From IMG/VR virus record IMGVR_UViG_3300025141_000059: a stretch of DNA of 64,000 nucleotides; one strand, 5' to 3'. This DNA is from an uncultured virus (IMG/VR IMGVR_UViG_3300025141_000059) (lineage: Duplodnaviria > Heunggongvirae > Uroviricota > Caudoviricetes). Below are positions 1 to 14,948 of this stretch, piece by piece; within the stretch, counting starts at the first letter, position 1; the number at the start of each line of letters is the position of its first letter. Made by a program: the position numbers and the translations under genes. The notes under the pieces are model-generated. The model was not told the DNA's origin. It saw only the letters and a list, made by a program, of their open reading frames with translations, and ran no database searches.

Positions 1-271
1 CAACCTCAGCTGATCCATCCTTCGCTATGCAGAGCACACGGACCGTGCCTGCAATGTCGACCTTCCAGGTCACCACTGCATTGGCTGAATCCGCTATCTC
101 CCGTAGATCCGTCCCGTTATCGGCCACGAATATGTAGTTGGTGGGCGTTATGCCCGAAGGTGTGGCCGTCAGAGTGATGACGTCCTTGAAATTCGGTGTA
201 TCATCTGAGGATGACACCGCCACGCCCGACGATATAGCACCTCCCATCCCTATTTTGGACCCGCAGGGCAT
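1..271 (-). CDS. Putative virion structural protein, beta-rich/Ig-like; runs off the left edge of the window
   Basis: Not in the ORF track. ATG at 271-269 overlaps the TAA of the neighbouring gene (TAATG coupling). Reads MPCGSKIGMGGAISSGVAVSSSDDTPNFKDVITLTATPSGITPTNYIFVAD... and is open to position 1. Confidence 0.7.
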   Translation of the reverse strand, partial: MPCGSKIGMGGAISSGVAVSSSDDTPNFKDVITLTATPSGITPTNYIFVADNGTDLREIADSANAVVTWKVDIAGTVRVLCIAKDGSAEV

Positions 272-567
272 TACGTCGCCCTATGATATCCGATCACCGT
301 GGCATCCACTACGATCCTTGTTATCAGAGCTCCTCCAGGTGCCGGGAGATAGGCTCCTGCCACAATGACGTTCCCATTCAACCCCCTTGCTGCGAGTAGG
401 TCAACATTATCCTCCTCCCACATAGTGAAGGTGACATTGGCCGTGGTCTCTATCGCTTCAAGTTCAAGGCCGGCATATCCCCCTGCCGGCAGAATGATGA
501 ATCCTCCATCCCCGGCCACCTTCCTATTGGATCTGGCGGAGACATTAGCTGCTTGGTGTTCATTCAT
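271..567 (-). CDS. Small putative structural protein (98 aa, MNEHQAANV...)
   Basis: 3' part of the 271..801 track ORF. The ATG at 567 lies just downstream of a TAnnTTTG box, and the gene is translationally coupled to the next one. Confidence 0.7.
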   Translation of the reverse strand: MNEHQAANVSARSNRKVAGDGGFIILPAGGYAGLELEAIETTANVTFTMWEEDNVDLLAARGLNGNVIVAGAYLPAPGGALITRIVVDATVIGYHRAT

Positions 568-587
568 GGTTCGAGTATTAGATTCCT

Positions 588-595
588 CAAAAATA
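588..595 (-). promoter_or_regulatory. Bacteroidota-type -7 promoter box (TATTTTTG)
   Basis: CAAAAATA on + matches TAnnTTTG on -, about 20 nt upstream of the ATG at 567. Confidence 0.5.
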
Positions 596-641
596 TACAA
601 AAAAGCATAAGGAGAGGCATTCGACCATTGAAAGTACCATA

Positions 642-938
642 CTGTCCCCTCTCGGATACAGGAACCCCCTAGGCGATCCTGATCCCGCTTCCCCTTTTTC
701 AAGTCGGACTTCGATGCTGACCAGTGCTCTGGGCCAAGGAGGGTCTTCGTCGGGTCAATTCCCGTACACTTACCTCTGTGTTGCATGTTGCAACCCTCCA
801 AGTCAGCTCTTATACCGACTCTTTGTGTCCTGTTGGAGAAAACATCCGCTCTATGTCGTGTTCTGAGCTTCCTAATCCAACGTCTGACCCCTTACTGCCC
901 TCTCGGTCCTGGGGGGTGATCATCTGTCGATGGGACAG
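642..938 (-). ncRNA. Candidate ~300-nt structured non-coding RNA
   Basis: Read on -, the ends pair (CTGTCCC/GGGACAG, ACAG/CTGT, ACCCCC/GGGGGT). Internal stems include GTTGGA/TCCAAC, AGTCGGT/GCTGACT and GGAGGGTT/GACCCTCC. It starts immediately after a TATCTTTG box. Confidence 0.5.
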
Positions 939-940
939 GC

Positions 941-948
941 CAAAGATA
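941..948 (-). promoter_or_regulatory. Bacteroidota-type -7 promoter box (TATCTTTG)
   Basis: CAAAGATA on +, with an A/T-rich upstream tract at 951-990. Confidence 0.55.
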
Positions 949-1087
949 ACTGAAAAAATTCCTGAAAAAAAAATTGGGAAAATTTCTGAATGCGTGGACC
1001 TACTTGTTAATCACCCCGGGTCATAAATGGGTTTTCAAACGCCTCCAGCATTCAAAATCATTTATTAACATAAAACACTTTAACATC

Positions 1088-1312
1088 ATGTTACATTCAG
1101 TAAAAGTTATCCAAAAGAAAGAGTGCTCTAATGGAGCACACTTTATCGGCGTCGCTCTTCGCGTCAAGATCAAAAATGCTCTTGGCGAATCGGAAGCCGA
1201 TGGTAAGGCCTATGGTCTCATCACAGATGATCCCATGACGGCCGAAATTGGGGAAGTTGTCGAACTCAGTCAAGCAGAGCTTGACAAAAATTTCGACCCC
1301 TACCGCGAGTAA
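1088..1312 (+). CDS. Hypothetical early protein (74 aa)
   Basis: ATG follows an A-rich leader (TAAAACACTTTAACATC), and a terminator follows the gene. Confidence 0.75.
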   Translation: MLHSVKVIQKKECSNGAHFIGVALRVKIKNALGESEADGKAYGLITDDPMTAEIGEVVELSQAELDKNFDPYRE

Positions 1313-1335
1313 TTCCTACGGAAGACGAGTAAAAT

Positions 1336-1360
1336 AAGGGGCTTCACCGCCCCTTTTTTT
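1336..1360 (+). terminator. Rho-independent terminator
   Basis: AAGGGGC-ttcacc-GCCCCTT followed by a T tract. Confidence 0.8.
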
Positions 1361-1366
1361 CCTCTC

Positions 1367-1647
1367 CCTTCGGTGTGTGAAAGCACAGTTCAACAGTTGA
1401 TAGCGTTGAACTGATGCATGTACCACTGAAGGCATGGGGAGTTATTGTAAGGACAATTGTTGCCAACAGGAAAATCTACGGAGTTTATACTTCAGGGGGT
1501 TTTCCTGAGACTGCAAGTGATGATTGATCTTGTAGAGTGGGAATGTACGCCCATGAACAATTGTCCTTTTCGATTCCTTCATAAGTAATGGTGTGAGTGT
1601 TCATAGGTGAAACAGGACGCTCACACCATATTTCCCCCTGTTTCACC
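1367..1647 (+). ncRNA. Candidate structured RNA (3-way junction, 4-way junction, pseudoknot)
   Basis: Stems at 1367-1375/1424-1432, 1386-1394/1405-1413, 1449-1461/1556-1568 (13 bp perfect), 1588-1600/1617-1629 and 1606-1616/1637-1647. No credible ORF. Confidence 0.55.
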
Positions 1648-1707
1648 AAAATTACATATCAAGAACTGTTATAAGTAATATAACATAAACCGACTAAAAC
1701 AAAGACA

Positions 1708-1824
1708 ATGAATACTTTAATATTCAAACAAACAGATCATCAACCAGGTTGATGTGAAGATGTATCGGAACCACCTGTAATTGGCCTGATACATCCAAAT
1801 CCTACCATAGCAACAGCATTGTAG
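1708..1824 (+). pseudogene. Short ORF interrupted by an in-frame TGA; paralogous fragment of 2041..2271
   Basis: Reads MNTLIFKQTDHQPG*CEDVSEPPVIGLIHPN... It shares a 25-nt exact repeat in the same frame with the 2041 gene and has the same leader style. Confidence 0.4.
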
Positions 1825-2139
1825 GCCCATCGTAAGGGGAGACCGAGCAAGTCCAGAGCAGGCTGGCAATGACTAGAAAATCCACTCCATTAGTGAGTGG
1901 TGTGATGCCGCGTGAGTGTAGCAACAGCTGTGGTATCATTAATTAAAGTGCTATCAATACTTAAGGGAGTGAAGCTTGGATACGATGATCCTGGAAGGCT
2001 TCACTCCTGTATTGGTATAAACCAACTAAAACAAGAAAACATGAAAAAGAAAGATATAGAGATAGGACCAGAGTGTGAAGAAGACAGAACCTTTCGTGGT
2101 GGTCAATGTCCTGTTGTAATTGGCCTGATACATCCAAAT
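1776..2139 (+). repeat. 25-nt exact direct repeat TGTAATTGGCCTGATACATCCAAAT (1776-1800, 2115-2139)
   Basis: Read directly from the sequence. Confidence 0.9.
1817..2016 (+). ncRNA. Candidate structured RNA / hairpin series
   Basis: Stems at 1817-1822/1866-1871, 1882-1887/1895-1900, 1903-1912/1929-1938, 1953-1960/2009-2016 and 1966-1977/1996-2007. Confidence 0.4.
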
Positions 2140-2271
2140 ATGTGCAACCAATGCTTAGGCTTCGGAGATGAGACAGTATGTACAGCTGATGTCAGTGATG
2201 ACTATGTACCAGGACGTGATGATCCACATGATGATCTGAACACGTACATCACTATTCCGACTGAGAATTGA
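2041..2271 (+). CDS. Small Cys-containing acidic hypothetical protein
   Basis: ATG follows the leader TAAACCAACTAAAACAAGAAAAC; contains CNQC. Confidence 0.65.
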   Translation: MKKKDIEIGPECEEDRTFRGGQCPVVIGLIHPNMCNQCLGFGDETVCTADVSDDYVPGRDDPHDDLNTYITIPTEN

Positions 2272-2307
2272 TATTGTAGTGGTGGCTGTTAATTCAGTCA
2301 CCACTCA

Positions 2308-2361
2308 ACTCGTTTGAGCGAGTATAAATAGGTGTTAGGCTCAAAGCGTCGTAAGGCTCAC
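2308..2361 (+). ncRNA. Pistol self-cleaving ribozyme-like element
   Basis: ACUCG-UUUGAG-CGAGU-AUAAAUAG-GUG-UUAGG-CUCAAA-GCG-UC(GUAA)GG-CU-CAC shows P1, the 6-bp loop pseudoknot, the AUAAA linker, the conserved GCG, P3 and P2 in pistol order. The predicted scissile site is C|U rather than G|U. Confidence 0.8.
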
Positions 2362-2386
2362 ATTAACCGATTAAAAATCAGAACAA

Positions 2387-2623
2387 ATGGAGAGTAAAAC
2401 ATCATTTACAATAGACGAAGAGAACTCTGATCGTCTACTCATCGAGCAGATGAGACATGAAATGGACATGTGTCCAACAGGAGAAGGAATTGAACCAGAA
2501 GCAGTGTATTGTTACGACCTCGGTAGTATGGTAGAGTCCACAAAGCCAGAAGAGATAACATTACCTGAAAGAGCTGCTGGGATGTCAGATTGGGACAGAT
2601 TCCTTCAGATACTTGCATGGTGA
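2387..2623 (+). CDS. Hypothetical acidic protein
   Basis: A-rich leader; lies directly downstream of the pistol element. Confidence 0.7.
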   Translation: MESKTSFTIDEENSDRLLIEQMRHEMDMCPTGEGIEPEAVYCYDLGSMVESTKPEEITLPERAAGMSDWDRFLQILAW

Positions 2624-2703
2624 TGATACTTTAGTCGGTGGCATTCTCCTGCGGGATACGTGATAGTCGTATAATAGGGATTTAACAATTAAACTAAGTG
2701 TGT

Positions 2704-2904
2704 ATGTACGGAACAGAACAGAGACGGAGATATGTGGTAAGGTATCAAATCGCATCTTATTCGGGTGAGGAAGTCGTGTATTGTGATGCAAATGACGATA
2801 GGGAAGTAATAATTGCCAAATGCAAAAGGCAGTTGAGTAGAAATCTTCCCTTGCCTTATGGTAGCGAATCCTTTACTATTATTGAACGTGAAGATGCAGG
2901 ATAG
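2704..2904 (+). CDS. Hypothetical protein
   Basis: ORF on the coding strand with an A-rich leader. Confidence 0.6.
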   Translation: MYGTEQRRRYVVRYQIASYSGEEVVYCDANDDREVIIAKCKRQLSRNLPLPYGSESFTIIEREDAG

Positions 2905-2940
2905 AGAGAGCGTAGAGAGCGAGGAATAAAGGATACTAAT

Positions 2941-3300
2941 CCTAACAAGCATGCAGATGGCGCCCACCGAAGGGTACGCGATCAATACCATGATTCTGTA
3001 GGACTTGTTAGGTGAGAGAACTCTGTAAATAAAGGAGGTTTGGGTAATCCTCGGTATGGAGATTGCTGAATAGACGTTAAACGGCTTGCAGGCAAAGAAG
3101 TACTAAATGATCCATCAGAGTTCTCTCCACTAACTAACGCCTGATGCAACCAACTGAAGAGTTGACAGGTGTGATGATAAGCTTTTGCGTGTCCGACTTA
3201 TTATCATTGGGAAAAAGAGAACCCAAGAAATCTCTTTACAGTAACACGAGTCGTCAACCGGGGAAACGGTCAAGGAAGGGTAATCAAGCCTTCCATTTTT
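2941..3300 (+). ncRNA. Candidate ~360-nt multi-stem structured RNA
   Basis: Stems at 2941-2949/3004-3012, 3014-3025/3116-3127 (12 bp perfect) and 3172-3181/3197-3206. Ends in GGAAGG/CCTTCC plus a T tract. Confidence 0.5.
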
Positions 3301-3337
3301 ATTCTAAACTGACAATTAAAATCATAAACTAAGAACA

Positions 3338-3784
3338 ATGAAAAGGGAAGACATAAAGAACAATGTATCTTATAGAACAGTTGACAGTAATTTCTCTTAC
3401 CCTGATGATCCTGGTACAGGATGGTATAGAGTATGTCAACTTGATGTACGTGATGCTGAAAGAATACTTGCACATCACTTTAAAACAGCAGGAATACGTA
3501 TCAATAACAAATATGTGGTACGTGTGAATGACAATGATGGTCAAGAGATCTTCATATACAACCATGATGGTCGTTATTATCTTGTAAATCAAACTCAGAA
3601 AGCTGTAACGAAAGAAGCTATTGCTCACGCGAACGCGTATGGGGATAAAGAGGAAGAAGAAAGAGAAAGAACAGCGTTCCAGGAAGCAGCTGAGGACTGG
3701 CTCAACTATTGGAAGAAGAAAGAGAAGAAGAAGAAAAAAAAGTTCCTCATTAGCTTCGATCAATTATCCCTTCGAGGTGGATAG
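3338..3784 (+). CDS. Hypothetical protein with a poly-lysine C-terminal tract
   Basis: 148-aa ORF with a leader shared with the 3840 gene. Confidence 0.75.
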   Translation: MKREDIKNNVSYRTVDSNFSYPDDPGTGWYRVCQLDVRDAERILAHHFKTAGIRINNKYVVRVNDNDGQEIFIYNHDGRYYLVNQTQKAVTKEAIAHANAYGDKEEEERERTAFQEAAEDWLNYWKKKEKKKKKKFLISFDQLSLRGG

Positions 3785-4097
3785 TGTGGCTCACGATCCA
3801 AATTTTACTCTAAACTAACAATTAAAATCATAGAGAACAATGAAAAGGAAAGATCGTACAGGTATAATGTTTACAAGGTCACATTCAACATGGAATAAGT
3901 TTGTAGCTATTCTTTCAGATAAAATTTCAAGAAAAGGGTGTGATCATAGTTATGTAGAGACTCGTAAGACACTTTATGTACATATAGAGCCAAAATACGA
4001 TATATCTATAAGTGATACTAAAACTATGGAATATTTTAAGAAATATGGAGGATATTGTGATTGTGAAATTCTTTTTAATGTGGCTCACGATCCAAAT
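3785..4097 (+). repeat. 19-nt exact direct repeat TGTGGCTCACGATCCAAAT (3785-3803, 4079-4097) flanking the 3840 gene
   Basis: Read directly from the sequence. Confidence 0.9.
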
Positions 4098-4103
4098 ATT
4101 TAA
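3840..4103 (+). CDS. DUF2695-like protein
   Basis: C-terminal GGYCDCEILFN motif, recalled as characteristic of DUF2695. More AT-rich than its neighbours. Confidence 0.65.
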   Translation: MKRKDRTGIMFTRSHSTWNKFVAILSDKISRKGCDHSYVETRKTLYVHIEPKYDISISDTKTMEYFKKYGGYCDCEILFNVAHDPNI

Positions 4104-4160
4104 CTAACTTAAGACTGGGAAATAAGATATAATAAGTATTAACAAATAAACATCAATCAA

Positions 4161-4730
4161 ATGGCAAGAGTAGCAGTTAGAAACAAGAGAGCACCGGAAC
4201 TCCTCAGAGTTCTTATGGTAATGAAGGAGTGCCTGGACACAAGGGATGTGGAAACAGGCATAGCACTTTATGAATGTGTGGACAACGGTCTCGTTGACGT
4301 GTCGCCTAAGACCGTGTTCAAGAACAGACATCAGATATTGAGTGTATTGCGTAGAGAGAACTTCATTGTCGAGAACGATAAGGGTAATCTTGTATGGAAC
4401 AAGGAGAAGCAGGACTTCCCCAACATTCATACTGCACGTAAAGTTCTTACAGTCATAGGTACTGATAACCGTGCCCGTGGGAAGCAGAGGTACATAGATA
4501 AGAAGTGGAAAGAACTCACTGAGGTCGATTTTGAAGAGGACAGGGATGGGAGTATGATGCCTGAAAAACAGAAAAGAGAGATTGCTTGTGCAACCGTCTC
4601 ATTCAATGGAGGTCAAATAGCCATGGAGGCTACCATCAGAGAGGGAAATACTCACGTTTTGGATATCAACGGAGTAGCTGTTGGCATCAGAGTGTTCCGT
4701 AAAGAAGAGAAAGTAAAAGTAGGAGAATAA
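4161..4730 (+). CDS. Hypothetical protein (189 aa)
   Basis: Long ORF with an A-rich leader. Confidence 0.8.
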   Translation: MARVAVRNKRAPELLRVLMVMKECLDTRDVETGIALYECVDNGLVDVSPKTVFKNRHQILSVLRRENFIVENDKGNLVWNKEKQDFPNIHTARKVLTVIGTDNRARGKQRYIDKKWKELTEVDFEEDRDGSMMPEKQKREIACATVSFNGGQIAMEATIREGNTHVLDINGVAVGIRVFRKEEKVKVGE

Positions 4731-4748
4731 CCACTGAATTCACACAGA

Positions 4749-5009
4749 ATGGAAATTCTACTACACATACTGATAATAGCAAAATGGGTGTACTGTATCA
4801 CCGTTCCTGCGGGAATGTTGCTTATGATCGTCCTCAAAGATGGCATTGAAGAGCAGCATAGGAACGATGAGATAGGCAGCCAGGGAGGATTGATACTGTG
4901 GTTTGCAATATTCTTCATCCCCATACTGAATACCCTGTTCCTGATGTACGTATTGTATATCCTACTCGGCCCCGAGCCGGAGCAGGAAGAAATAGACCCA
5001 GACACATAG
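4749..5009 (+). CDS. Small membrane protein (2 predicted TM helices)
   Basis: Two hydrophobic stretches and an acidic tail. Confidence 0.7.
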   Translation: MEILLHILIIAKWVYCITVPAGMLLMIVLKDGIEEQHRNDEIGSQGGLILWFAIFFIPILNTLFLMYVLYILLGPEPEQEEIDPDT

Positions 5010-5271
5010 GGAGAGGTAGCACATCATAGGATGTGTGGTTGATATCACACCTCTCCCGACGTGTTATTCTTTAACGCATTGGTTCGATCGGGAAGTTTTG
5101 TGAAGTGTTTTCTTCCAAGGTATGAACGGACCATGGGGACGCGAGTCCCCAGAACATTGGCCACCAAATATCACGACAGTGATGGAAAAGAGTATCTACA
5201 AGCAACTCATTCCACACACATAGGAAGTAGTAATGGCGAATAGGTTGGGAAACCTTAACATCTACAAGAAT
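5009..5271 (+). ncRNA. Candidate structured RNA with three GNRA-capped hairpins
   Basis: Stem 5009-5017/5049-5057; TGGGGAC-GCGA-GTCCCCA (5134-5151); ATCAC-GACA-GTGAT (5170-5183); AGGTT-GGGA-AACCT (5242-5255); stem 5080-5086/5127-5133. Confidence 0.55.
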
Positions 5272-5303
5272 CAATTTTAATCATTTCTAAAATCATAGAA
5301 AAA

Positions 5304-5900
5304 ATGGCAAAGTCAAAAGTGACCGTGCAGTCCGTAAATGCACAGATTGAGAGCCTTCAGAAAGGTGATACCCTTTTAGTACAGGCTATTAAGACCTCTA
5401 ATAAGGACAAAGTTCAGTTGGAGTTCGCAGAGAAAACAGCAAGTGTGAAGGGTAATTCCGGAGCTCTGTTGGGAATTTTGAACAAGAGTGATGATCGTTT
5501 CAACAGTGGAGCTCGTAGGGCTTGGATCACTGCGGAGATATCTGATCTTGCAGAGCAAATGGACCTGAACTGCGATGATGGACAGGATTGGGTGGATCAC
5601 CCGACCATGGCCAAAAAAGAGGTTCTGCCTTTGGGCATCAAGAACCCTGTTCTTGGAGATCTTCGATTGAGAGTTCAGATCGAGGAGACCACAGAGGCTA
5701 CCGAGTTTCAGGCCGATAACATCGACAGCTCTGCAAAGAGGAGAGGTGCGGACGGAGACTTTATCACTCACAACGGTGAGTACATCTTCAGTAATACTGT
5801 TGTTGTACCATTGGCAGCAGGCGATGAGCCTATTCACACTATCCTTAAAGCGGATGCGGTGACTGTTGGAGCCAAAGTGGATGATGAGGTAGGAATGTAA
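5304..5900 (+). CDS. Hypothetical protein, likely highly expressed
   Basis: 198 aa, A-rich leader and its own terminator. Confidence 0.85.
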   Translation: MAKSKVTVQSVNAQIESLQKGDTLLVQAIKTSNKDKVQLEFAEKTASVKGNSGALLGILNKSDDRFNSGARRAWITAEISDLAEQMDLNCDDGQDWVDHPTMAKKEVLPLGIKNPVLGDLRLRVQIEETTEATEFQADNIDSSAKRRGADGDFITHNGEYIFSNTVVVPLAAGDEPIHTILKADAVTVGAKVDDEVGM

Positions 5901-5921
5901 TCCGAACTCAATTTACCAATC

Positions 5922-5955
5922 AAGGGAGGGGTCAGTTGATCGACCTCTCCCTTTA
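5922..5955 (+). terminator. Rho-independent terminator
   Basis: AAGGGAGGGGTC / GACCTCTCCCTT stem with a short T tail. Confidence 0.7.
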
Positions 5956-5972
5956 TAAAGTTTACCCTGCCA

Positions 5973-6116
5973 ATGAACTACGAATTGAGCAAGTACGGAA
6001 ACGAATGGTCGATCTATTGCAAAACAAGCAGATGTCATGTCCTATTCGGTAAGAAGAAGGAATTGAAGAAACGACTAAAGGAATTGAATAGACAACTAAT
6101 AATCATTGACAGATGA
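5973..6116 (+). CDS. Small basic hypothetical protein (47 aa)
   Basis: Not in the track. Reads MNYELSKYGNEWSIYCKTSRCHVLFGKKKE..., with an ATGA overlap with the next gene. Confidence 0.55.
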   Translation: MNYELSKYGNEWSIYCKTSRCHVLFGKKKELKKRLKELNRQLIIIDR

Positions 6117-6463
6117 AAGTAGAGCACGGAAATGTCCACAATATCACAAACCTGAACCGCATCAGGAACGGTATTCCCCATGTGTTAGACAGTAATGAAC
6201 TGATCGCGATCTGCAATATAGGTCGGTTGGAGTTCTGTGAAGAAGGAGTGACGGTGTACTGGATGAGCGAAGAAGAAGTGGGGACGATGAACAGAATTCA
6301 CGTTCAACACGACAGGATAAAAGACAGGTTGAACAAGCTGAAGGGACTGCTTGACCAAAAGTTCCAATCACAATTACATGAGTTAAAACAATTGAAAGAC
6401 CAAGACAATGATCGACGAAATGACGGAATCACAGCAAAAAATGGTAATGGTCAAGTTTGCTGA
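6113..6463 (+). CDS. Hypothetical protein
   Basis: Coupled ORF in the + operon. Confidence 0.65.
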   Translation: MKVEHGNVHNITNLNRIRNGIPHVLDSNELIAICNIGRLEFCEEGVTVYWMSEEEVGTMNRIHVQHDRIKDRLNKLKGLLDQKFQSQLHELKQLKDQDNDRRNDGITAKNGNGQVC

Positions 6464-6608
6464 TTGGATTAAATCCCAGAGTATATGTATCGTTCAAAGT
6501 AAGGACGGTGCAATCTGGGGTTCGTCTTATCGAGGGGGAGGCCAATACACAAGCGAAGAGCTGATGATTTATTTCTACAGGCACTTGGATATCCCTAATA
6601 AGAAATGA
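6408..6608 (+). CDS. Hypothetical protein
   Basis: Overlapping ORF in the + operon. Confidence 0.55.
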   Translation: MIDEMTESQQKMVMVKFADWIKSQSICIVQSKDGAIWGSSYRGGGQYTSEELMIYFYRHLDIPNKK

Positions 6609-6708
6609 AAGTTATATATTGGGATGATCTATTTCCTAACGCTTGGCCTATTGACAATAAACTGCTTTTTATATCTTATATATTTATCACAATAAACTAA
6701 AACAAGCT

Positions 6709-7185
6709 ATGAAACTATACGATGTGTTCGAGATCAGAATGTTGCCTGACAGCAACGCCTTCCAAGAGATCCTGGAAGAAATCTTAGGTGTTAATGTACG
6801 ACCTGAACAGGTCACGCGACACGATGATGGAAACGGTTTTTGCTTCGAGGCGAAGCTGAAGATCAAGCCGACAGACAAGAGCGAGGTTCACATTATGATG
6901 AACCACGACCTCAAGTTCATGATTATTCCGTATAATTCTAAGGGGCAAAAGTTCCCGACAAGATATATGCCATTCAACACGCTTGACAAGGGTACGGAGT
7001 TGGTGGCGTACCTGATACATAAGGGCTATTTGGCTCCAAAGCGTAGGAAGAACATGGAAAATACCGAGCCACCATACATCGAGCAACTGTTAGCAGAGGC
7101 ACAGAAGAAGAGAACCACCATGACAATGATAGCAATTATCGGGTGGATAGCAGCCGCAGTAGCAATAGCAGCACTATTGAGTTAA
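6709..7185 (+). CDS. Hypothetical protein with a C-terminal TM anchor
   Basis: 158 aa with a hydrophobic C-terminus and A-rich leader. Confidence 0.75.
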   Translation: MKLYDVFEIRMLPDSNAFQEILEEILGVNVRPEQVTRHDDGNGFCFEAKLKIKPTDKSEVHIMMNHDLKFMIIPYNSKGQKFPTRYMPFNTLDKGTELVAYLIHKGYLAPKRRKNMENTEPPYIEQLLAEAQKKRTTMTMIAIIGWIAAAVAIAALLS

Positions 7186-7190
7186 AGCGT

Positions 7191-7493
7191 ATGATAGGGT
7201 TTGACGAGTACCTACAGGTCACGGATCCTAAGAGGTTCGTCGATGTCAGATTGAAGAAGAGTGATCTTGTCGATAAGGTCAAGGTCATTGGAGGGTATGA
7301 GGTCACACTCATGATACATGGTGTACCGTACATCTATCTGGTCAGACCAGGAGAGACGCAGTTGCATGTGATAGATACCTATGGTAATCTTCGGAACCTC
7401 TCCTGTTTTCAACTGAATAAACCCCTTGAACCTAAAAGAGAGGTAACAACGCCGCGAACGTGGCTCAAAGACAAGAATGATGACAGGGTATGA
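7191..7493 (+). CDS. Hypothetical protein
   Basis: ATG lies just after the previous stop. Confidence 0.65.
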   Translation: MIGFDEYLQVTDPKRFVDVRLKKSDLVDKVKVIGGYEVTLMIHGVPYIYLVRPGETQLHVIDTYGNLRNLSCFQLNKPLEPKREVTTPRTWLKDKNDDRV

Positions 7494-7728
7494 GGACTGC
7501 GCAGGCAGTGTGCTTAAGAAGTATGATTTTGTGGGGTATGTACAATATGACCGCCTGTACAGAGGGTTCGTACACAGCTTCACACCGAAAAAGGTCAGAG
7601 TGATTCCCGTATACAACATGAGGTCAACATTACCGAAGATCGTCATTGACCGGGCAACAGCAAAGGACTTTGTGACCATCAGGCCGGACCGACTTATAAA
7701 AGCGGTGAAGCCTGGTCATTATCGTTGA
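7477..7728 (+). CDS. Hypothetical protein
   Basis: Overlapping ORF in the + operon. Confidence 0.6.
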   Translation: MMTGYEDCAGSVLKKYDFVGYVQYDRLYRGFVHSFTPKKVRVIPVYNMRSTLPKIVIDRATAKDFVTIRPDRLIKAVKPGHYR

Positions 7729-7800
7729 ATGGTTCATTTCACCGAGGACATACAGGGGGATCGTCAACGAGTCCCCCTGCCTCACCTAAAGAAGATAATT

Positions 7801-7947
7801 ATGGAACAAGAAGAACTTGTAAGAGAGCTGAATGAACGGCTCAAGGAAAGACTGAAGGAGAAATCCGGTTGGGGCAGGATAGAGTTGGGTGTGGTCATCG
7901 ATAAGGTGACCATAGACGTCCTGTCAGAGGCTGTAAGTAAGAAATGA
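7801..7947 (+). CDS. Small hypothetical protein
   Basis: ATGA overlap with the polymerase gene. Confidence 0.5.
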   Translation: MEQEELVRELNERLKERLKEKSGWGRIELGVVIDKVTIDVLSEAVSKK

Positions 7948-9866
7948 TCTATTTCATAGGGCCAGAGCGCCCTCTCAGTACGATACCGACCGCTACCATG
8001 GAGGAGTGTGTGACGTATTGTACTGAGCAGGCCCTGTTGGGGCTTGACACTGAGACGACCGGTCTTGATGTGACCGACAACAAGATCATCATGGTGCAGA
8101 TAGGGACCGCTGCAAAGCAGTTCGTGATAGACACAAGGTTTGTCAGCATCGAGCCATTGCGCGGTATACTTGAGGGTAAGAGGAGCCTCAAGATACTTCA
8201 CAATGCAAAATTCGATTACCAATTCTTCAGAAATATGGGAATTGTACTGGAGAGGGTGTGGGATACCATGCTCATGGATCAGGTCATCCATTGTGGGGAT
8301 GAGAAGATAAGGTATGGATTGGACAAGGTTGTCCTTCGATATCTGAAAATAACGCTCAAGAAGGACGTCCGTGGTCAGTTCATCGGATTGTCCGGTGCCC
8401 CTTACACGGACGCACAGGTGGTATATGGTGCCAAGGATGTTGAATACTTGGAACAGATATATGATCATCAGGTGCCTATTATCAATAGGATACAGTTGAA
8501 AAGCACCGTGGGTCTGGAAAATGCAGTAGTTCTTGCATTTGCAGACATAGAGTACAATGGGTTGGATCTGGACATAGAGAAGTGGAAAGAACTCACTGTC
8601 AATTTTGAACATGACATGCACGAGCTGGAAAAAGGGCTCGACGAAGCAATATTTGCGGACAAACGGTTCGCATCATTGATACCGGAGTATGTACAGACAG
8701 AGCTCTTTGAAACAGAGATACGTAGACTTCACATCAAGTGGAGTTCACCGAAGCAGGTACTCGAAGTAATGCAGAAGATAGTACCGAATTTAGCTGATGT
8801 CAACGGAAAAAATTTGTATCTTCATAGGAAGAAACATCCCATAATTTCTGTTTACATCAAGTACAAGGAACAAGCGAAGATCGTGTCTTCCTACGGGGAA
8901 GCCTTCCTTCAGAATTTAAAGTCTGATGGTAGGATTCACACATCCTTCAGGCAGATTCTGAGCACAGGGAGAGTGAGTTCATCTCATCCGAACATGCAGC
9001 AGATACCTGGCGACAATGCCTTTAGGAATTGCTTCATAGCACCTGAAGGTTGGAAGTTCGTCAGCAGTGACTACAGCTCTCAAGAGCTTAACGTCATTGC
9101 CTATGGTTCTAAGGATCCAGTATGGCTTAAAGCACTTAAAGATGAGCAGGATCTGCATTCAGTATGTGCTGAGCTTGTGTATGGAGATGTGTGGAAGAAA
9201 GCAGCACTACCAGATTGTGCCTTCTATAGAATGGACATCAACTATGTACTTGAAGGCCCTGTTCATATGAAAGAGAAGTGCAATTGTCCTGAACATAAGA
9301 AGCTCAGGACGAATGTGAAGACAGTGAACTTCGGACTTGCCTACGGTATGGGCCCACAGAAGCTTGCTGATACCATTGAGGTGTCCATGGCTGATGCCAA
9401 GAAGTTGATCGAAGAGTATTTCAAGGTGTTCCCATCTATTGGGGATTTCCTTGACAAGCTTGGAAAATTCGGTGTGCGGTACGGCTTTGCCAAGACCTAT
9501 CCACCGTTCAATAGGAGACGCAAGTTTCCACAATGGCATCAGTATCTGGGACAGAGTCCTTCAGATAGTGGAACCATCAGTACCATTGAACGTGCAAGTA
9601 AGAACACTCCCATCCAGGGAACAAGTGCCGACATGACCAAGCTTGCCTTAGTGTATGTCCGTAGGAAGATCAAAAAGTCCTACGGTAACAACAAGGTACG
9701 CTTGGTAATGACCATACATGATCAGATCGATACCATCTGTAGGGAAGATGTTGCTGAACAATGGAAGGAAGACCTTACAAGATGCATGCAGGTGGCGGCA
9801 GACGCTATCATCAGTAATGAACTACTCAAAGCAGAAACAGAGGTAACTGACGCTTGGAGCAAATAA
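7944..9866 (+). CDS. polA: Family A DNA polymerase with 3'-5' exonuclease domain
   Basis: Exo motifs LDTETTG, HNAKFD and YGAKD; TGRVSS..PNMQQIP; motif A DYSSQE; motif B RTNVKTVNFGLAYG; motif C IHDQI. Confidence 0.97.
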   Translation: MIYFIGPERPLSTIPTATMEECVTYCTEQALLGLDTETTGLDVTDNKIIMVQIGTAAKQFVIDTRFVSIEPLRGILEGKRSLKILHNAKFDYQFFRNMGIVLERVWDTMLMDQVIHCGDEKIRYGLDKVVLRYLKITLKKDVRGQFIGLSGAPYTDAQVVYGAKDVEYLEQIYDHQVPIINRIQLKSTVGLENAVVLAFADIEYNGLDLDIEKWKELTVNFEHDMHELEKGLDEAIFADKRFASLIPEYVQTELFETEIRRLHIKWSSPKQVLEVMQKIVPNLADVNGKNLYLHRKKHPIISVYIKYKEQAKIVSSYGEAFLQNLKSDGRIHTSFRQILSTGRVSSSHPNMQQIPGDNAFRNCFIAPEGWKFVSSDYSSQELNVIAYGSKDPVWLKALKDEQDLHSVCAELVYGDVWKKAALPDCAFYRMDINYVLEGPVHMKEKCNCPEHKKLRTNVKTVNFGLAYGMGPQKLADTIEVSMADAKKLIEEYFKVFPSIGDFLDKLGKFGVRYGFAKTYPPFNRRRKFPQWHQYLGQSPSDSGTISTIERASKNTPIQGTSADMTKLALVYVRRKIKKSYGNNKVRLVMTIHDQIDTICREDVAEQWKEDLTRCMQVAADAIISNELLKAETEVTDAWSK

Positions 9867-9877
9867 ATGGAAAAACT

Positions 9878-11092
9878 ATGAAATTAGAAGGAAGATCAAT
9901 TAAGGATATTGAACAGAACATTGCATTTCAGAACTACCTCAGATCAGGGAGTAAGGGTGCTGTGATCGCCGGTACCGGCTTTGGTAAGACCAGGGTCGGT
10001 GTCATCGCGGCAGAGGATGCATTGAACTGCAACCACCATGATGTTCTCATTCTCGTACCATTTGAACACCTCAAGGACAGGTTCCGAGAGGAGTTCAAGA
10101 AGACGGGGAGAGAGGAACTTCTGGAGAAGGTGGAGTTTCATTGCTATGCATCTGCCAAGAAAGTGATAGAGGAGAGGAAGAATTACTCCGCTATCATATG
10201 TGACGAGATACATCTGGGACTGACAGACAAGTGTTTTGAGCTCTACAAGCTCTACATGGACACACGTATGTTGTTTCTCACGGCCACATTGCCGGAGGAT
10301 CCCACTTACAGGATGAGACTACATGTCCTAGTTCCTACGGTGTATACCATCACATTGGATGAATGTGTGGAGAAGGGGCTCGTGGCCCCATACTCCATTG
10401 AATGTCTTGGAGTTGAACTCACGGAACGTGAGGCCAAAGACTACAAGAAGGTCAACTCGAACTTCGGGTACTGGAAGCAGCAACTTGGGTTTGATGCTTT
10501 CAAGCATGCACAGAGGGTGCTTGCGAACAAGAAGAAGTACAGTAAGCTTGTCAAGGCGGCAGTAGGTTTCTACAGAGCCATCAGACAGCGGAAGGAGATA
10601 GTTGACCATGCAAATAATAAGATCTCAGTGGCCTCAAGGCTTACTGAGGAGTATGAGGGGAAGATCCTCGTGTTCGGAGGGGACAATGCATTCACCGATC
10701 TTCTCGCAGAAGGGATCGATGGTAGTGTGGTCTATCATTCTGCGCGTAAAGCGAAGGAGAAGAGAGAAGCACTGCAAAAGTTCAAAGATGGACGGGCATA
10801 TGTCCTCTGTAGTACCAAGGCCTTGAATCAGGGACTTGATGTTCCTGATGCTGGAATAGGTCTGATCTGTGGTCTTACAAGTAAGGCTTTGACCATGATC
10901 CAAAGAGTTGGGAGACTGGTACGTATCGATCCCGAAAACCCTGAAAAATCAGGTAAAGTAGTGGTGGTGTACGTGAAAGACTCCCAAGAAGAGAAGTGGC
11001 TGAGAAGCGCATTGAAAAACATAGATAGATCAAACATATCATGGAAAGATGCAGACGTAACAATAGAAGCCCAGAGCAGCTTGGTCACCTGA
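9878..11092 (+). CDS. Superfamily 2 DExH helicase
   Basis: Motifs GTGFGKT, DEIH, TAT, GLDVP and QRVGR. Confidence 0.93.
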   Translation: MKLEGRSIKDIEQNIAFQNYLRSGSKGAVIAGTGFGKTRVGVIAAEDALNCNHHDVLILVPFEHLKDRFREEFKKTGREELLEKVEFHCYASAKKVIEERKNYSAIICDEIHLGLTDKCFELYKLYMDTRMLFLTATLPEDPTYRMRLHVLVPTVYTITLDECVEKGLVAPYSIECLGVELTEREAKDYKKVNSNFGYWKQQLGFDAFKHAQRVLANKKKYSKLVKAAVGFYRAIRQRKEIVDHANNKISVASRLTEEYEGKILVFGGDNAFTDLLAEGIDGSVVYHSARKAKEKREALQKFKDGRAYVLCSTKALNQGLDVPDAGIGLICGLTSKALTMIQRVGRLVRIDPENPEKSGKVVVVYVKDSQEEKWLRSALKNIDRSNISWKDADVTIEAQSSLVT

Positions 11093-11112
11093 TCGGCAGG
11101 TCCCGGGGTCCT

Positions 11113-11268
11113 ATGACGGACCTCGGTGATCTTGTCGAGACGGCAAAGAGAATGAACCTACAACGTTTCAAGTACCCCGTTGAGTATAGGTTCGAAGAGG
11201 AGAGGCACAATGACACTGCAGGGTACGAGCGGATAATAATTGAAGAGGAAAAAAGAATAGAATTCTAA
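11113..11268 (+). CDS. Small hypothetical protein
   Basis: TAATG coupling to the next gene. Confidence 0.5.
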   Translation: MTDLGDLVETAKRMNLQRFKYPVEYRFEEERHNDTAGYERIIIEEEKRIEF

Positions 11269-14896: not shown

Positions 14897-14915
14897 TCGA
14901 CCAGGTTCAATTGAC

Positions 14916-14948
14916 AAAGGGCGCTAATTAAGTTTAGCGCCCTTTTTT
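14916..14948 (+). terminator. Rho-independent terminator
   Basis: AAAGGGCGCTAA / TTAGCGCCCTTT stem plus T tract. Confidence 0.85.

What the first reader, a model, noticed from the sequence alone, without database searches (positions are those of the whole stretch)
600..5300. Early region is an alternating array of structured non-coding RNAs and small ORFs, including a self-cleaving ribozyme-like element
Seen: genes abut or overlap almost everywhere else in the window. Here about six gaps (642-938, 1367-1647, 1817-2016, 2279-2361, 2941-3300, 5009-5271) are instead filled with 9-13 bp stems, multi-way junctions, GNRA loops and pseudoknots. G-U pairs fix a strand for several of them. One matches the pistol ribozyme layout. 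Known: in the crAss-like phage phi14:2, early genes are transcribed by the virion RNAP. Inference: this could be an RNA-based system at the head of the early transcript, in which ribozyme cleavage and protective folds release stable ncRNAs and individual mRNAs. Possible roles include host-takeover, decoy or anti-defence RNAs.
Basis: partly seen in the sequence, partly recalled or inferred. Interest (0 to 1): 0.88.

Follow-up and report, generated by a model that had tools for sequence, protein, structure and literature searches.

The report
Pistol ribozyme in hairpin-rich phage operon
The first genes of an uncultured marine crAss-like phage are separated by unusually long gene-free stretches that hold one genuine self-cutting "pistol" RNA, several very stable RNA hairpins, two terminators and a decayed gene copy, which most likely punctuate the early transcript rather than form a new RNA weapon.

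Summary
About 49% of window 568-5303 is non-coding, against about 2% elsewhere. Rfam places a Pistol ribozyme at 2308-2362 (+) with 52.2 bits against a threshold of 34.5. Its P1 stem and pseudoknot covary with seven pistols of cultured phages. Eight other elements fold better than all, or all but one, of 200 shuffles.

Not everything is structured RNA. Gap 642-938 folds no better than chance. Positions 1685 to about 1900 are a decayed gene copy. Two elements are plain terminators.

None of the orphan folds has a relative in 82 related loci, so covariation could not be tested. No RNA run was listed.

Only three pieces are conserved in the phage family: a 45-nt hairpin block (877-921, found in 41 contigs), the hairpin at 1588-1629, and the motif at 1676.

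My best reading (0.5) is cis-acting transcript punctuation: termination, self-cleavage, 3'-end protection and leader insulation. Trans-acting decoy or anti-defence RNAs are not excluded but nothing supports them.

The pistol has an unusual CU cleavage junction and a minimal P3 stem, so its activity is unproven.

This scan has noted pistols in phage operons and hairpin-rich crAss-like early regions on other DNA.

The parts
877..921 (.). Family-conserved 45-nt control block, CCAACNTCTGACCC-N23-GGGTGATC. It has a 6-bp helix (ACCCNN/NNGGGT) around a mini-hairpin, in the middle of the divergent intergenic region.
   Evidence: An exact-pattern scan found it in 41 viral contigs, giving 31 distinct sequences with the window. 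About 229 of 239 cells pair (95.8%), 31 cells are compensatory, and 0 of 500 shuffles reach the covariation score. It is flanked by divergent ORFs in most loci.
1088..1312 (+). First rightward small ORF (74 aa).
   Evidence: Codon LLR +23.9. No PHROG or Pfam family. A first small ORF at the same relative place occurs in the family.
1336..1362 (+). Intrinsic terminator T1: a 7-bp GC-rich stem followed by U7.
   Evidence: Terminator scan. The same gene-1-then-CCCC-T5+ arrangement is seen in 16 of the related loci listed.
1367..1433 (+). E1, a 27-bp imperfect hairpin.
   Evidence: z -6.9 on + and -5.7 on -, 0 of 200 shuffles. No relative in 82 loci.
1449..1568 (+). E2, a three-way junction closed by a perfect 13-bp helix (1449-1461 with 1556-1568).
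   Evidence: z -5.8 on + and -3.6 on -, 0 of 200 shuffles. Inverted repeat I15. No relative.
1588..1629 (+). E3a, a 15-bp GUGUG/CACAC hairpin. Its loop and 3' arm (1606-1616) are complementary to 1637-1647.
   Evidence: z -6.1, 0 of 200 shuffles. A positional counterpart with GUGUG/CACAC arms and a U-rich tail occurs in 9 of 15 relatives.
1676..1685 (+). Single-copy motif TAATATAACA, 23 nt before the decayed second gene. It may be a promoter or a processing site.
   Evidence: It occurs once in 64 kb. ATATAACA lies at the syntenic place in 20 of 35 loci, against 0.098 expected per 1500 nt.
1685..1900 (+). Decayed paralogue of the leader plus gene 2041-2271. It has an in-frame TGA at 1750-1752 and a 25-nt stretch identical to 2115-2139.
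   Evidence: Codon LLR -7.3. Positions 1825-1950 fold at z -0.4. The 3' limit near 1900 is approximate.
1951..2020 (+). E4, a 26-bp hairpin that abuts the A-rich leader of gene 2041.
   Evidence: z -6.9 on + and -5.8 on -, 0 of 200 shuffles.
2041..2271 (+). Small ORF (76 aa) upstream of the ribozyme.
   Evidence: Codon LLR +11.2. No family.
2277..2306 (+). E6, an 11-bp hairpin starting 7 nt after the stop codon and ending 2 nt before the ribozyme.
   Evidence: z -6.8, 0 of 200 shuffles.
2308..2362 (+). Pistol ribozyme.
- P1: 2308-2312 with 2319-2323
- pseudoknot: 2313-2318 with 2340-2345
- P2: 2332-2334 with 2359-2361, plus G2331.A2362
- P3: 2349-2350 with 2355-2356, with a GUAA loop
- predicted cut between C2357 and U2358, 29 nt before AUG 2387
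   Evidence: Rfam RF02679, 52.2 bits against GA 34.5. The core is 89% identical to Bacillus phage pistols. P1 plus pseudoknot: 87 of 88 cells pair, 5 of 11 pairs are compensatory, and 0 of 500 shuffles reach the score.
2387..2623 (+). Small ORF (78 aa) downstream of the ribozyme.
   Evidence: Codon LLR +18.5.
2704..2904 (+). Small ORF (66 aa) with weak coding signal.
   Evidence: Codon LLR +5.1. The 80-nt spacer before it is unstructured, z +0.6.
3005..3136 (+). E8, a branched module closed by a 12-bp perfect helix.
   Evidence: z -3.4 on + and -4.2 on -, 0 of 200 shuffles. Inverted repeat I4.
3274..3303 (+). Terminator-like hairpin T2 (GGAAGG/CCUUCC, then AUUUUUAUU) that abuts the leader of gene 3338.
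   Evidence: Read from the sequence and the fold. The terminator scan did not call it, because its loop has 9 nt.
3297..4103 (+). Two gene cassettes (3338-3784 and 3840-4103) that share boundary repeats: 3297-3351 with 3803-3853 (85%), and 3782-3806 with 4076-4100 (92%).
   Evidence: Gene 3840 matches Pfam DUF2695 with E 3.7e-10.
4998..5068 (+). E9, a Y-tipped hairpin that overlaps the stop codon of gene 4749-5009.
   Evidence: z -4.8 on + and -5.3 on -, 0 of 200 shuffles.
5078..5152 (+). E10, two hairpins, one a 7-bp GC stem with a GCGA loop.
   Evidence: z -3.6, 1 of 200 shuffles.
5304..5900 (+). First gene of the region that is conserved in relatives (198 aa). It marks the end of the variable region.
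   Evidence: tblastx matches in related loci. Codon LLR +98.

Best explanation
Window 568-5303 is the hypervariable head of the rightward (replication-side, presumably early) gene block of an uncultured marine crAss-like phage. It is half non-coding because its small accessory genes are separated by cis-acting transcript punctuation, not because it encodes a battery of trans-acting RNAs.

Shown:
- A pistol-family ribozyme lies in sense orientation between genes 2041 and 2387.
- There are two intrinsic-terminator-type hairpins.
- At least seven lineage-specific hairpins or helix-closed branched modules are far more stable than shuffled sequence.
- There are A-rich, Shine-Dalgarno-less leaders in front of each uncoupled gene.
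- There are repeated cassette boundaries and one decayed gene duplicate.

Inferred:
- The pistol cuts the transcript between C2357 and U2358.
- This leaves the upstream message ending in a 2',3'-cyclic phosphate, behind hairpin E6 and the compact ribozyme fold.
- It leaves the downstream message starting with a 5'-OH, 29 nt before its AUG, on an unstructured leader.
- The long hairpins that abut other leaders (E3a, E4, T2, E9/E10) terminate transcription, block 3' exonucleases or offer double-strand RNase sites, as in phage T7. They also keep each leader from pairing with upstream sequence.
- The region turns over by cassette shuffling and decay.
For: Pistol:
- Rfam gives 52.2 bits against a threshold of 34.5. 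It is the only gathering-level hit in 64 kb.
- blastn finds the core in 40 phage records.
- All 7 records fetched carry an Rfam pistol at or above threshold, in sense orientation. Each begins between 10 nt inside and 20 nt past the end of the upstream gene or tRNA and lies ahead of the next feature. Gundel_1 has 19 nt from pistol end to the next ATG; here it is 24 nt.
- P1 and the pseudoknot covary: 87 of 88 cells pair, and 0 of 500 shuffles reach the score.
- The positions that the review PMC6154101 names as catalytic (purine 32, G33, G40, C41, G42) are all occupied, by the Rfam alignment.

Stable folds:
- Eight elements were reached by 0 or 1 of 200 shuffles.
- 6 of the 12 150-nt windows starting at 1276-2101 have z below -3, against 8 of 186 in the background.
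- Six of the eight elements have a better z on the + strand.

Orientation and punctuation:
- T1 carries its U7 tail on the + strand.
- The leader motif occurs 7 times, against 1.5 expected. Similar A-rich leaders precede uncoupled genes elsewhere, at 6709, 13531 and 21931.
- Hairpins E4, T2 and the pistol each end directly at a leader.

Turnover:
- Boundary repeats flank genes 3338 and 3840.
- There is a decayed duplicate at 1685 to about 1900.
- Relatives share only the control block, the hairpin-plus-motif module and gene 5304.

In print: processing of polycistronic transcripts by bacterial self-cleaving ribozymes is a suggestion, not a demonstration (review PMC6765202, passages).
Against: - No RNA evidence exists. 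No RNA run was listed, so transcription, ends and cleavage are all unseen.
- The pistol differs from the seven cultured-phage pistols in two ways. Its junction is CU where all seven have GU. Its P3 has only 2-3 bp plus GUAA; the shortest other, GMA2, has 3 bp plus GAGA. It could be a dead copy.
- None of E1, E2, E4, E6, E8, E9 or E10 has any relative in 82 non-self loci, 674 kb. Purifying selection on the folds is therefore untested.
- The nearest relatives have much smaller gaps.
- The pistol core is absent from all 68 related loci searched.
- The strongest RNA (1367-1647) starts 5 nt after terminator T1 and ends before a family-conserved motif that may be a promoter. It may lie in an untranscribed spacer.
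- Hairpins fold on both strands, and E8 and E9 are slightly better on the - strand. DNA-level roles are not excluded.
- No sigma-70-type promoter excess was found: 18 hits against 15.8 expected.
Confidence: 0.5

Rival explanations
1. Some of the folds, above all the 281-nt RNA at 1367-1647 (E1-E3) and perhaps 3005-3136, are stand-alone, stable, abundant early non-coding RNAs. They would resemble the two early intergenic RNAs of phi14:2 and act in trans on the host (takeover, decoy or anti-defence). The pistol and the hairpins would serve to release and protect them.
For: - The phi14:2 preprint reports two long early intergenic regions transcribed above most genes. They do not decline late, and their function is undetermined (passages).
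- 1367-1647 is exceptionally stable: -113 kcal/mol, z -7.4 on + against -3.9 on -.
- It has a multi-branch architecture rather than a simple terminator.
- Relatives also have strongly folded sequence at the head of the block: L019 6150-6580 has z -7.8, and L061 has a run of windows at -3.3 to -5.9.
Against: - There is no similarity to phi14:2 or to any Rfam family.
- There are no homologues in 82 loci, so no covariation test is possible.
- No promoter is evident between T1 and E1.
- The pistol is not adjacent to these RNAs. It sits directly before a protein-gene leader.
- At least one phi14:2 intergenic RNA looks like a tmRNA, and the window has none.
- No defence-related signal of any kind was found.
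Confidence: 0.2
2. The hairpins act mainly at the DNA level. They could be extruded hairpin promoters or pause sites for the virion RNA polymerase (as in phage N4), origin or primosome signals, or recombination hot spots that drive cassette exchange.
For: - The only strongly conserved piece, block 877-921, is a hairpin with far more sequence than structure conservation (24 invariant columns).
- Its mismatches are C.A seven times against U.G once on the + strand. That fits folding of the - strand, which is the template for rightward transcription.
- phi14:2 gp66 was assayed on denatured DNA, and no early promoter motif was found.
- E8 and E9 fold at least as well on the - strand.
- E2's closing helix contains the palindrome ACAATTGT.
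- Boundary repeats suggest recombination.
Against: - Six of eight elements fold better as + strand RNA, with 2-5 G-U pairs each.
- The elements share no sequence with one another, unlike N4 promoters or iterons.
- The pistol is by nature an RNA element.
- Terminators and leaders show that the region is organised for + strand transcripts.
Confidence: 0.15
3. Most of the non-coding sequence is debris. It would be decaying accessory genes and leftover terminators in a fast-evolving region, with a pistol copy that may no longer cut. No system is present.
For: - A decayed gene copy is demonstrable at 1685 to about 1900.
- 642-938, 1825-1950, 3137-3297 and 5153-5270 fold like shuffles.
- Nothing from 1313 to 5303 is conserved by similarity search in 82 loci, and relatives do without it. 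Only the hairpin-plus-motif module at 1588-1685 has positional counterparts.
- The pistol has a CU junction and a minimal P3.
Against: - Decay does not create eight elements with z of -3.4 to -6.9 and perfect 12-15-bp helices.
- A perfect 13-bp inverted repeat within 120 nt is expected about 0.008 times in 4.7 kb (my arithmetic).
- The pistol keeps every conserved core position and a perfect 6-bp pseudoknot.
- The hairpins sit consistently at gene ends and leader starts.
Confidence: 0.15

Closest known systems
Pistol self-cleaving ribozyme class (Rfam RF02679; Harris et al. 2015, PMC4604425, passages read; review PMC6154101, passages read)
   Same: - Rfam score is above threshold.
- It has a 5-bp P1, a 6-bp P1-loop pseudoknot and the AAA linker.
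- All positions named as catalytic are occupied.
- P2 has the same G.A plus three Watson-Crick pairs as the other phage pistols.
- It lies in sense orientation in an intergenic gap next to phage genes.
   Different: - The junction is CU rather than the usual GU. Harris et al. say the identity varies somewhat but the 2-nt length is fixed.
- P3 is reduced to 2-3 bp plus a GUAA loop.
- No pistol in a crAss-like phage turned up in the library search (9 papers, listing only; in the one opened, 'crass' is Neurospora crassa).
Early long intergenic non-coding RNAs of Cellulophaga crAss-like phage phi14:2 (bioRxiv 10.1101/2020.03.07.982082, passages read)
   Same: The host phage is a marine crAss-like phage with a virion RNA polymerase homologue. 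Long gene-free stretches lie among the first rightward genes.
   Different: - There is no sequence similarity.
- The phi14:2 gaps are not strongly folded by z-score, and one holds a tmRNA-like gene.
- Expression here is unknown.
RNase III processing hairpins between the early genes of phage T7 (established knowledge, recalled, not read here)
   Same: Long hairpins (E1, E4, about 26-27 bp) lie between cistrons of one strand. A proposed consequence is separate messages with protective 3' hairpins.
   Different: No evidence of RNase III cutting exists. The elements are heterogeneous. One junction uses a ribozyme rather than a host enzyme. The host is probably a Bacteroidota member.
PeSL cassettes (promoter-early stem-loops) of T4-type phage hyperplastic regions (Arbiol et al. 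2010, PMC2839356, abstract read)
   Same: It is a variable region of small non-essential genes. Stem-loop terminators lie next to gene starts, and repeated boundary sequences flank swappable genes (3297-3351 with 3803-3853; 3782-3806 with 4076-4100).
   Different: There is no sigma-70-like promoter excess. Most stem-loops here are unique rather than copies of one cassette. No mini-circles were tested.
Hairpin promoters of the phage N4 virion RNA polymerase (review PMC4496689 seen in a search listing only; details recalled)
   Same: This applies only to block 877-921. It is a conserved sequence around a short hairpin, upstream of genes presumed to be read by a virion polymerase. The mismatch pattern hints at template-strand folding.
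   Different: The helix encloses 21 nt rather than a 3-nt loop. There is one copy per genome rather than three. There is no functional evidence, and the polymerase family is different.

Membership tests
Pistol ribozyme (RF02679) | Covariance-model score at or above Rfam's gathering threshold | tested here: met
   52.2 bits against 34.5, full model 1-68, E 1.2e-6 on 64 kb.
Pistol ribozyme (RF02679) | P1 hairpin, and a pseudoknot between the P1 loop and the P2-P3 junction | tested here: met
   P1 is ACUCG/CGAGU. The pseudoknot is UUUGAG/CUCAAA, 6 of 6 pairs. On 8 phage pistols, 87 of 88 cells pair, 5 of 11 pairs have compensatory changes, 0 of 500 shuffles reach the score, and slid controls give 16-42%.
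Pistol ribozyme (RF02679) | Conserved core nucleotides: the AAA linker, purine 32, the G33-C41 pair, G40 and G42 | tested here: met
   AUAAAUA, UUAGG and AAGCGU align to the consensus columns. The roles of these positions come from PMC6154101 passages. Mapping of the numbering onto the Rfam columns is my inference.
Pistol ribozyme (RF02679) | P2 helix closing the core | tested here: met
   GGUG/CACA gives G.A plus 3 Watson-Crick pairs. The same G.A-plus-3 pattern, with covarying inner pairs, occurs in Troll, SWEP1, MaeS, Perkons, Gundel_1 and GMA2.
Pistol ribozyme (RF02679) | A 2-nt junction between P3 and P2 that carries the cleavage site, usually GU | tested here: inconclusive
   The length is 2 nt only if P3 is taken as 2 bp. 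The identity is CU, while the 7 cultured-phage pistols all have GU. Harris et al. state that the identity varies but the length is fixed.
Pistol ribozyme (RF02679) | P3 stem | tested here: inconclusive
   Only U-G and C-G pairs plus a GUAA loop are present, or 3 bp if G2348 pairs with C2357. GMA2 has 3 bp plus GAGA, and the others have 7 bp or more.
Pistol ribozyme (RF02679) | Mg2+-dependent self-cleavage | not testable with these tools
   This needs an in vitro transcript of about 2270-2400.
T7-type intercistronic RNase III sites | About 20 bp or more of duplex between cistrons of one transcript, cut by host RNase III | tested here: inconclusive
   E1 (27 bp) and E4 (26 bp) have the size and position. 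Co-transcription and cutting are not testable here.
PeSL cassettes of T4-type phages | A repeated cassette of a strong sigma-70-like promoter plus a terminator stem-loop at many gene boundaries | tested here: not met
   Sigma-70-like sites number 18, against 15.8 (sd 3.3) expected. The hairpins share no sequence. Only two boundary repeats and two terminator-type hairpins were found.
phi14:2 early intergenic lncRNAs | High and persistent transcription of long early intergenic regions | not testable with these tools
   No RNA run was listed. There is no sequence similarity.
Large ornate phage RNAs and other catalogued RNAs (any Rfam family) | Match to a curated covariance model | tested here: not met
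   An E-value scan of 1-8000 up to E 10 gave 8 matches. Only the pistol was above threshold, and the rest scored 15-25 bits against thresholds of 38-45. ARAGORN found no tRNA or tmRNA.

The most novel reading that the evidence does not exclude
The head of this crAss-like phage's early block is an RNA production line. Transcription would start at the family-conserved hairpin block (877-921), read as a template-strand hairpin by the virion RNA polymerase. The pistol ribozyme and helix-closed modules would then carve the transcript into stable, lineage-specific non-coding RNAs (notably 1367-1647 and 3005-3136) that act in trans on the host, alongside individually stabilised small mRNAs.
Probability: 0.12. 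Interest if true: 0.8.

Novelty: new member of a known kind. Interest (0 to 1): 0.45.

Why it matters
The natural job of pistol ribozymes is still unknown. A review treats mRNA processing by bacterial ribozymes as a suggestion only (PMC6765202).

Here a pistol sits in the short gap between two same-strand genes, 29 nt before a start codon. All seven cultured-phage pistols I fetched also sit in sense orientation right after the upstream feature, and six of the seven lie ahead of a gene: Tenacibaculum phage Gundel_1, Bacillus phages Troll and SWEP1, Psychrobacillus phage Perkons, Microcystis phage MaeS and Gordonia phage Austin. In GMA2 the pistol sits between two tRNAs. This gives a concrete, testable setting in phages that can be grown: cistron separation with a 5'-OH leader.

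The window also shows which parts of a crAss-like early region are really conserved. These are a 45-nt hairpin block shared by 41 contigs and a hairpin-plus-motif module. The block matters because no early promoter motif was found for the phi14:2 virion polymerase. The orphan folds themselves remain unproven.

Tried and rejected
Searches for homologues:
- DNA similarity of 1-8000 and 600-5300 to the phage collection gave no match in near or distant mode.
- The own assembly is not held. The nearest record, G001, and loci L005 and L017 are the same phage, with no differences inside 600-5300.
- PolA-anchored relatives numbered 11 viral and 18 metagenome loci. The nearest non-self has 54-55% identity, and they share only gene 5304.
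- Protein 4161-4730 as a query found only self.
- Exact patterns from the pistol and the leader found only self.
- A strict degenerate pistol pattern gave 6 loci, and 0 of 6 are pistols by Rfam.
- An nhmmer pistol-core profile hit 0 of 68 related loci.
- nhmmer with 14 pieces of the region against 82 loci hit only with 568-876 and 922-1087, plus two weak hits (E 0.4 and 0.7) for the decayed copy.

Searches for other RNA families or expression:
- Rfam on 16 related loci gave one tRNA and no ribozyme.
- For RNA runs, none was listed.

Ideas tested and dropped:
- tmRNA or tRNA-like identity for 1367-1647 was rejected: ARAGORN and Rfam found nothing.
- The Bacteroidota promoter pattern TTTG...TAnnTTTG has no full match on either strand.
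- Gene 1088 is not detectably similar to the first ORF of L019.
- RNAalifold on the hairpin-plus-motif alignment A5 predicted no consensus pairs, because the arms are of unequal length. The 9-of-15 statement therefore rests on single-sequence folds.
- A MITE-like origin was rejected, because every hairpin is single-copy.

Full report
**What the window is.**
The window belongs to an uncultured phage. Genes run rightward from about 1 kb to 24.8 kb: family-A DNA polymerase, helicases, primase, a Sak4-like annealing protein, an exonuclease and RIIA/RIIB-like proteins. From 24.8 kb to 64 kb they run leftward.

The 4564-aa leftward ORF matches the virion RNA polymerase gp66 of the crAss-like phage phi14:2. 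The match is to PDB 6VR4 with E 2.1e-23, residues 3095-3707 against 811-1401. That the rightward block is "early" rests on analogy with phi14:2 only.

The own assembly is not held. The records that match (G001, L005, L017) are the same phage and do not differ inside 600-5300.

**Are the gaps real?**
I built a gene map from the ORF lists, start-codon context and a codon-usage likelihood trained on 19 long genes. The small genes are:
- 1088-1312
- 2041-2271
- 2387-2623
- 2704-2904
- 3338-3784
- 3840-4103
- 4161-4730
- 4749-5009
- 5304-5900

Their log-likelihood ratios are +5 to +98. ORFs inside the gaps score -8 to +9. In-frame 70-codon chunks of real genes average 24 (sd 7.7). Non-coding sequence is 2300 of 4736 nt between 568 and 5303. 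After 5304, gaps of 80 nt or more total about 1360 of 58,700 nt.

**Are the gaps folded beyond chance?**
For the six gaps as written, + strand z-scores against 60 dinucleotide shuffles are -2.3, -7.4, -3.3, -4.5, -2.3 and -3.8. The three short spacers score about 0.

As background I folded 186 sense-strand 150-nt windows from 8-64 kb. The mean is -0.56 with sd 1.17, 8 of 186 fall below -3, and 2 of 186 fall below -4. Several of those outliers also sit at gene junctions. In the finding, 6 of the 12 windows starting at 1276-2101 fall below -3.

I then split the gaps into elements and used 200 shuffles on both strands. Eight elements stand out, each reached by 0 or 1 of 200 shuffles:

| Element | Coordinates | Description | z (+ strand) |
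|---|---|---|---|
| E1 | 1367-1433 | hairpin | -6.9 |
| E2 | 1449-1568 | three-way junction closed by a perfect 13-bp helix | -5.8 |
| E3a | 1586-1633 | 15-bp stem | -6.1 |
| E4 | 1951-2020 | hairpin | -6.9 |
| E6 | 2277-2306 | hairpin | -6.8 |
| E8 | 3005-3136 | branched, closed by 12 bp | -3.4 |
| E9 | 4998-5068 | hairpin | -4.8 |
| E10 | 5078-5152 | two hairpins | -3.6 |

The stretches that are not beyond chance are both halves of 642-938 (+0.4 and -0.5), the whole 568-1087 (-0.6, with 27 of 100 shuffles as good), 1825-1950 (-0.4), 3137-3297 (-1.6) and 5153-5270 (-1.6). Six of the eight elements score better on the + strand. E8 and E9 do not.

**The ribozyme.**
Rfam at gathering thresholds gives one hit in 64 kb: Pistol (RF02679) at 2308-2362 on the + strand. 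It scores 52.2 bits against a threshold of 34.5 and matches the full model. A permissive scan of 1-8000 adds nothing credible.

Read against the consensus, the parts are:
- P1: ACUCG/CGAGU
- pseudoknot: the loop UUUGAG is the exact complement of CUCAAA in the P2-P3 junction
- the AUAAAUA linker and the UUAGG...AAGCGU core are present
- P2: G.A plus three Watson-Crick pairs
- P3: only UC/GG around a GUAA loop
- junction: CU

The review PMC6154101 (passages) names a purine at 32, the G33-C41 pair, G40 and G42 as the active-site residues. By the Rfam alignment all of these positions are occupied here. The mapping of that numbering is my inference.

Harris et al. (PMC4604425, passages) say the cut lies in a "modestly conserved GU" whose identity varies, while the 2-nt length is strictly kept.

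**Relatives of the ribozyme.**
blastn of the 61-nt stretch finds the core in 40 phage records, up to 89% identical over 45 nt. These comprise 33 Bacillus, 3 Gordonia, 2 Tenacibaculum, 1 Psychrobacillus and 1 Microcystis records. I fetched 7 distinct ones, and all 7 are Rfam pistols at 44-73 bits.

In all 7 the ribozyme is in sense orientation. It begins between 10 nt inside and 20 nt past the end of the upstream gene, or of a tRNA in GMA2, and lies ahead of the next feature. In Tenacibaculum phage Gundel_1, which has a marine Flavobacteriia host, the next ATG follows 19 nt after the ribozyme. Here it follows after 24 nt.

On the 8 sequences, P1 plus the pseudoknot pair in 87 of 88 cells. Five of 11 pairs show compensatory changes, 0 of 500 shuffles reach the covariation score, and slid controls give 16-42%. 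The G.A-plus-three P2 pattern is shared and covaries.

Two points count against activity. All 7 relatives have GU at the junction. The shortest other P3 (GMA2) is 3 bp plus GAGA. Family membership is therefore secure, but activity is not.

If the ribozyme is active, the cut falls between C2357 and U2358. That leaves a 29-nt A-rich leader with a 5'-OH before AUG 2387. It also leaves hairpin E6 plus the ribozyme body at the 3' end of the upstream message.

**What else lies in the gaps.**
- Terminator T1 (1336-1362): a GC stem followed by U7, directly after gene 1088.
- A decayed paralogue at 1685 to about 1900, comprising the leader and 5' part of gene 2041. It shares 17 of 18 leader bases and a 25-nt stretch of 100% identity (1776-1800 with 2115-2139). 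It has an in-frame TGA at 1750 and a codon LLR of -7.3.
- A terminator-like hairpin with an AUUUUUAUU tail (3274-3303) that abuts the leader of gene 3338.
- Cassette-boundary repeats around genes 3338 and 3840: 55 nt at 85% and 25 nt at 92%.
- An A-rich TAAAC...AAAA leader before each uncoupled start codon. It gives 7 matches against 1.5 expected, and 0 of 100 shuffles reach 7. Similar leaders precede genes at 6709, 13531 and 21931, so it is a general translation leader rather than an early-region signal.

Hairpins E4, T2 and the pistol each end exactly where a leader begins.

**Comparative evidence.**
Polymerase-anchored relatives share only gene 5304 with the region. Aligning the divergent intergenic regions by eye and with MAFFT exposed one conserved block at 877-921. 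Scanning viral contigs for CCAACNTCTGACCC-N20-26-GGGTGATC returned 41 contigs, giving 31 distinct sequences with the window.

Its helix ACCCNN/NNGGGT and a 2-bp inner hairpin pair in 95.8% of 239 cells. Thirty-one cells are compensatory, 0 of 500 shuffles reach the score, and slid controls give 12-54%. RNAalifold finds the same helix.

Mismatches at the two variable pairs are C.A seven times and U.G once on the + strand. This is a weak hint that the - strand is the folded one. The sequences are related, so it is not a probability.

The block lies about 225-260 nt from the first leftward ORF and about 255-285 nt from the first rightward ORF in most loci. It is absent from the cultured-phage collection and from phi14:2 1-12000.

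Downstream, the family shares this order:
1. gene 1
2. an intrinsic terminator
3. a GUGUG/CACAC hairpin with a U-rich tail, seen in 9 of 15 relatives by single-sequence folds (RNAalifold on the alignment predicted no pairs)
4. a single-copy motif, TAATATAACA at window 1676 (ATATAACA occurs in 20 of 35 loci within 1500 nt, against 0.098 expected)
5. a leader
6. gene 2

E3a is thus the local form of a conserved hairpin, while E1 and E2 are lineage-specific additions.

Everything else is orphan. nhmmer with 14 pieces of the region against 82 non-self loci (674 kb) hits only with 568-876 and 922-1087, plus two weak hits (E 0.4 and 0.7) for the decayed copy. The pistol core hits none of 68 related loci.

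Early regions of three relatives are also rich in stable folds. In L061, L059 and L054, 11, 10 and 8 of 68 windows fall below -3. L019 6150-6580 has z -7.8. A folded head of the block therefore recurs, although the sequences are not homologous.

**Reading.**
The best-supported account is transcript punctuation in a fast-turning accessory-gene region. It comprises terminators, one self-cleaving ribozyme, stable hairpins at gene ends and leader starts, shuffled cassettes and debris.

The steps shown are the identities and positions of these elements. The steps inferred are transcription as + strand polycistronic RNA, cleavage, end protection and leader insulation.

The idea that ribozymes process polycistronic messages into parts of different stability is in print only as a suggestion for bacterial hammerhead and twister RNAs (PMC6765202). 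T7's RNase III sites (recalled) and T4-type PeSL cassettes (PMC2839356, abstract) are the nearest working models. The PeSL membership test fails on the promoter feature.

Against my reading:
- There is no RNA evidence.
- No selection test is possible.
- The pistol may be a relic.
- The strongest RNA (1367-1647) lies between a terminator and a possible promoter.

The trans-acting rival keeps weight, because phi14:2 makes abundant, stable early intergenic RNAs of undetermined function.

**Prior notes of this scan.**
Word searches returned 118 notes on pistols in phage DNA and 8 on hairpin-rich crAss-like early regions in other genomes. None concerned this genome or sequence. They gave me the PeSL paper lead and the expectation of a conserved control region. 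I then found that region independently in this family.

**Verdict.**
The finding is a real feature that is only partly what was claimed. It contains a new member of the pistol class in a crAss-like phage, in a recurring intercistronic setting. It also contains a set of unproven orphan RNA folds. I score interest at 0.45.

Noticed in passing
window 877-921 (also L050-L090): A 45-nt block (CCAACNTCTGACCC-N23-GGGTGATC) with a covarying 6-bp helix is shared by 41 uncultured viral contigs. It sits midway in their divergent intergenic region. It could be an early promoter, operator or origin element. C.A mismatches outnumber U.G mismatches 7 to 1, which hints that the template (-) strand folds.
   Followed up: partly
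L035 (phi14:2, NC_021806) 4031-4502 +: The 1.7-kb gene-free stretch between g004 and g006 of phi14:2 was described in the preprint as the source of abundant early non-coding RNA of unknown function. It holds a tmRNA-like gene: Rfam gives 46 bits against a threshold of 47 (E 9e-16), and ARAGORN calls a tmRNA with tag GSSVQKLAMVA.
   Followed up: partly
window 1676-1685; family loci about 660-1100 nt after the block: The single-copy motif TAATATAACA lies 20-35 nt before the second rightward gene. It is conserved at the same place in 20 of 35 related loci and is preceded by a GUGUG/CACAC hairpin. It could be a promoter or a processing signal.
   Followed up: partly
window 1776-1800 and 2115-2139: A 25-nt stretch is 100% identical between the decayed gene copy and the live gene 2041-2271, while the flanks have diverged to about 50%. 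This suggests recent gene conversion or selection on the nucleotide sequence.
   Followed up: no
window 14897-15011, 21807-21930, 23498-23578, 7801-7950: Other gene junctions outside the finding also carry strong hairpins or terminators. Window 14901 has z -5.2, window 21801 has -4.5 and window 7801 has -4.9. One hairpin with a U-tract is followed by an A-rich leader before gene 21931.
   Followed up: no
L047 (Gordonia phage GMA2) 480-891 and 1201-1257: In GMA2 a short-P3 pistol (57 nt) sits 3 nt after tRNA-Trp, inside a tRNA array that also holds a tmRNA (94.6 bits). This is a different setting from the gene-to-gene pistols.
   Followed up: no
L019 6172-6450: The first rightward ORF of a relative lies inside sequence that folds at z -7.8 over 6150-6580. 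Either a structured RNA overlaps the coding sequence or the ORF call is spurious.
   Followed up: no
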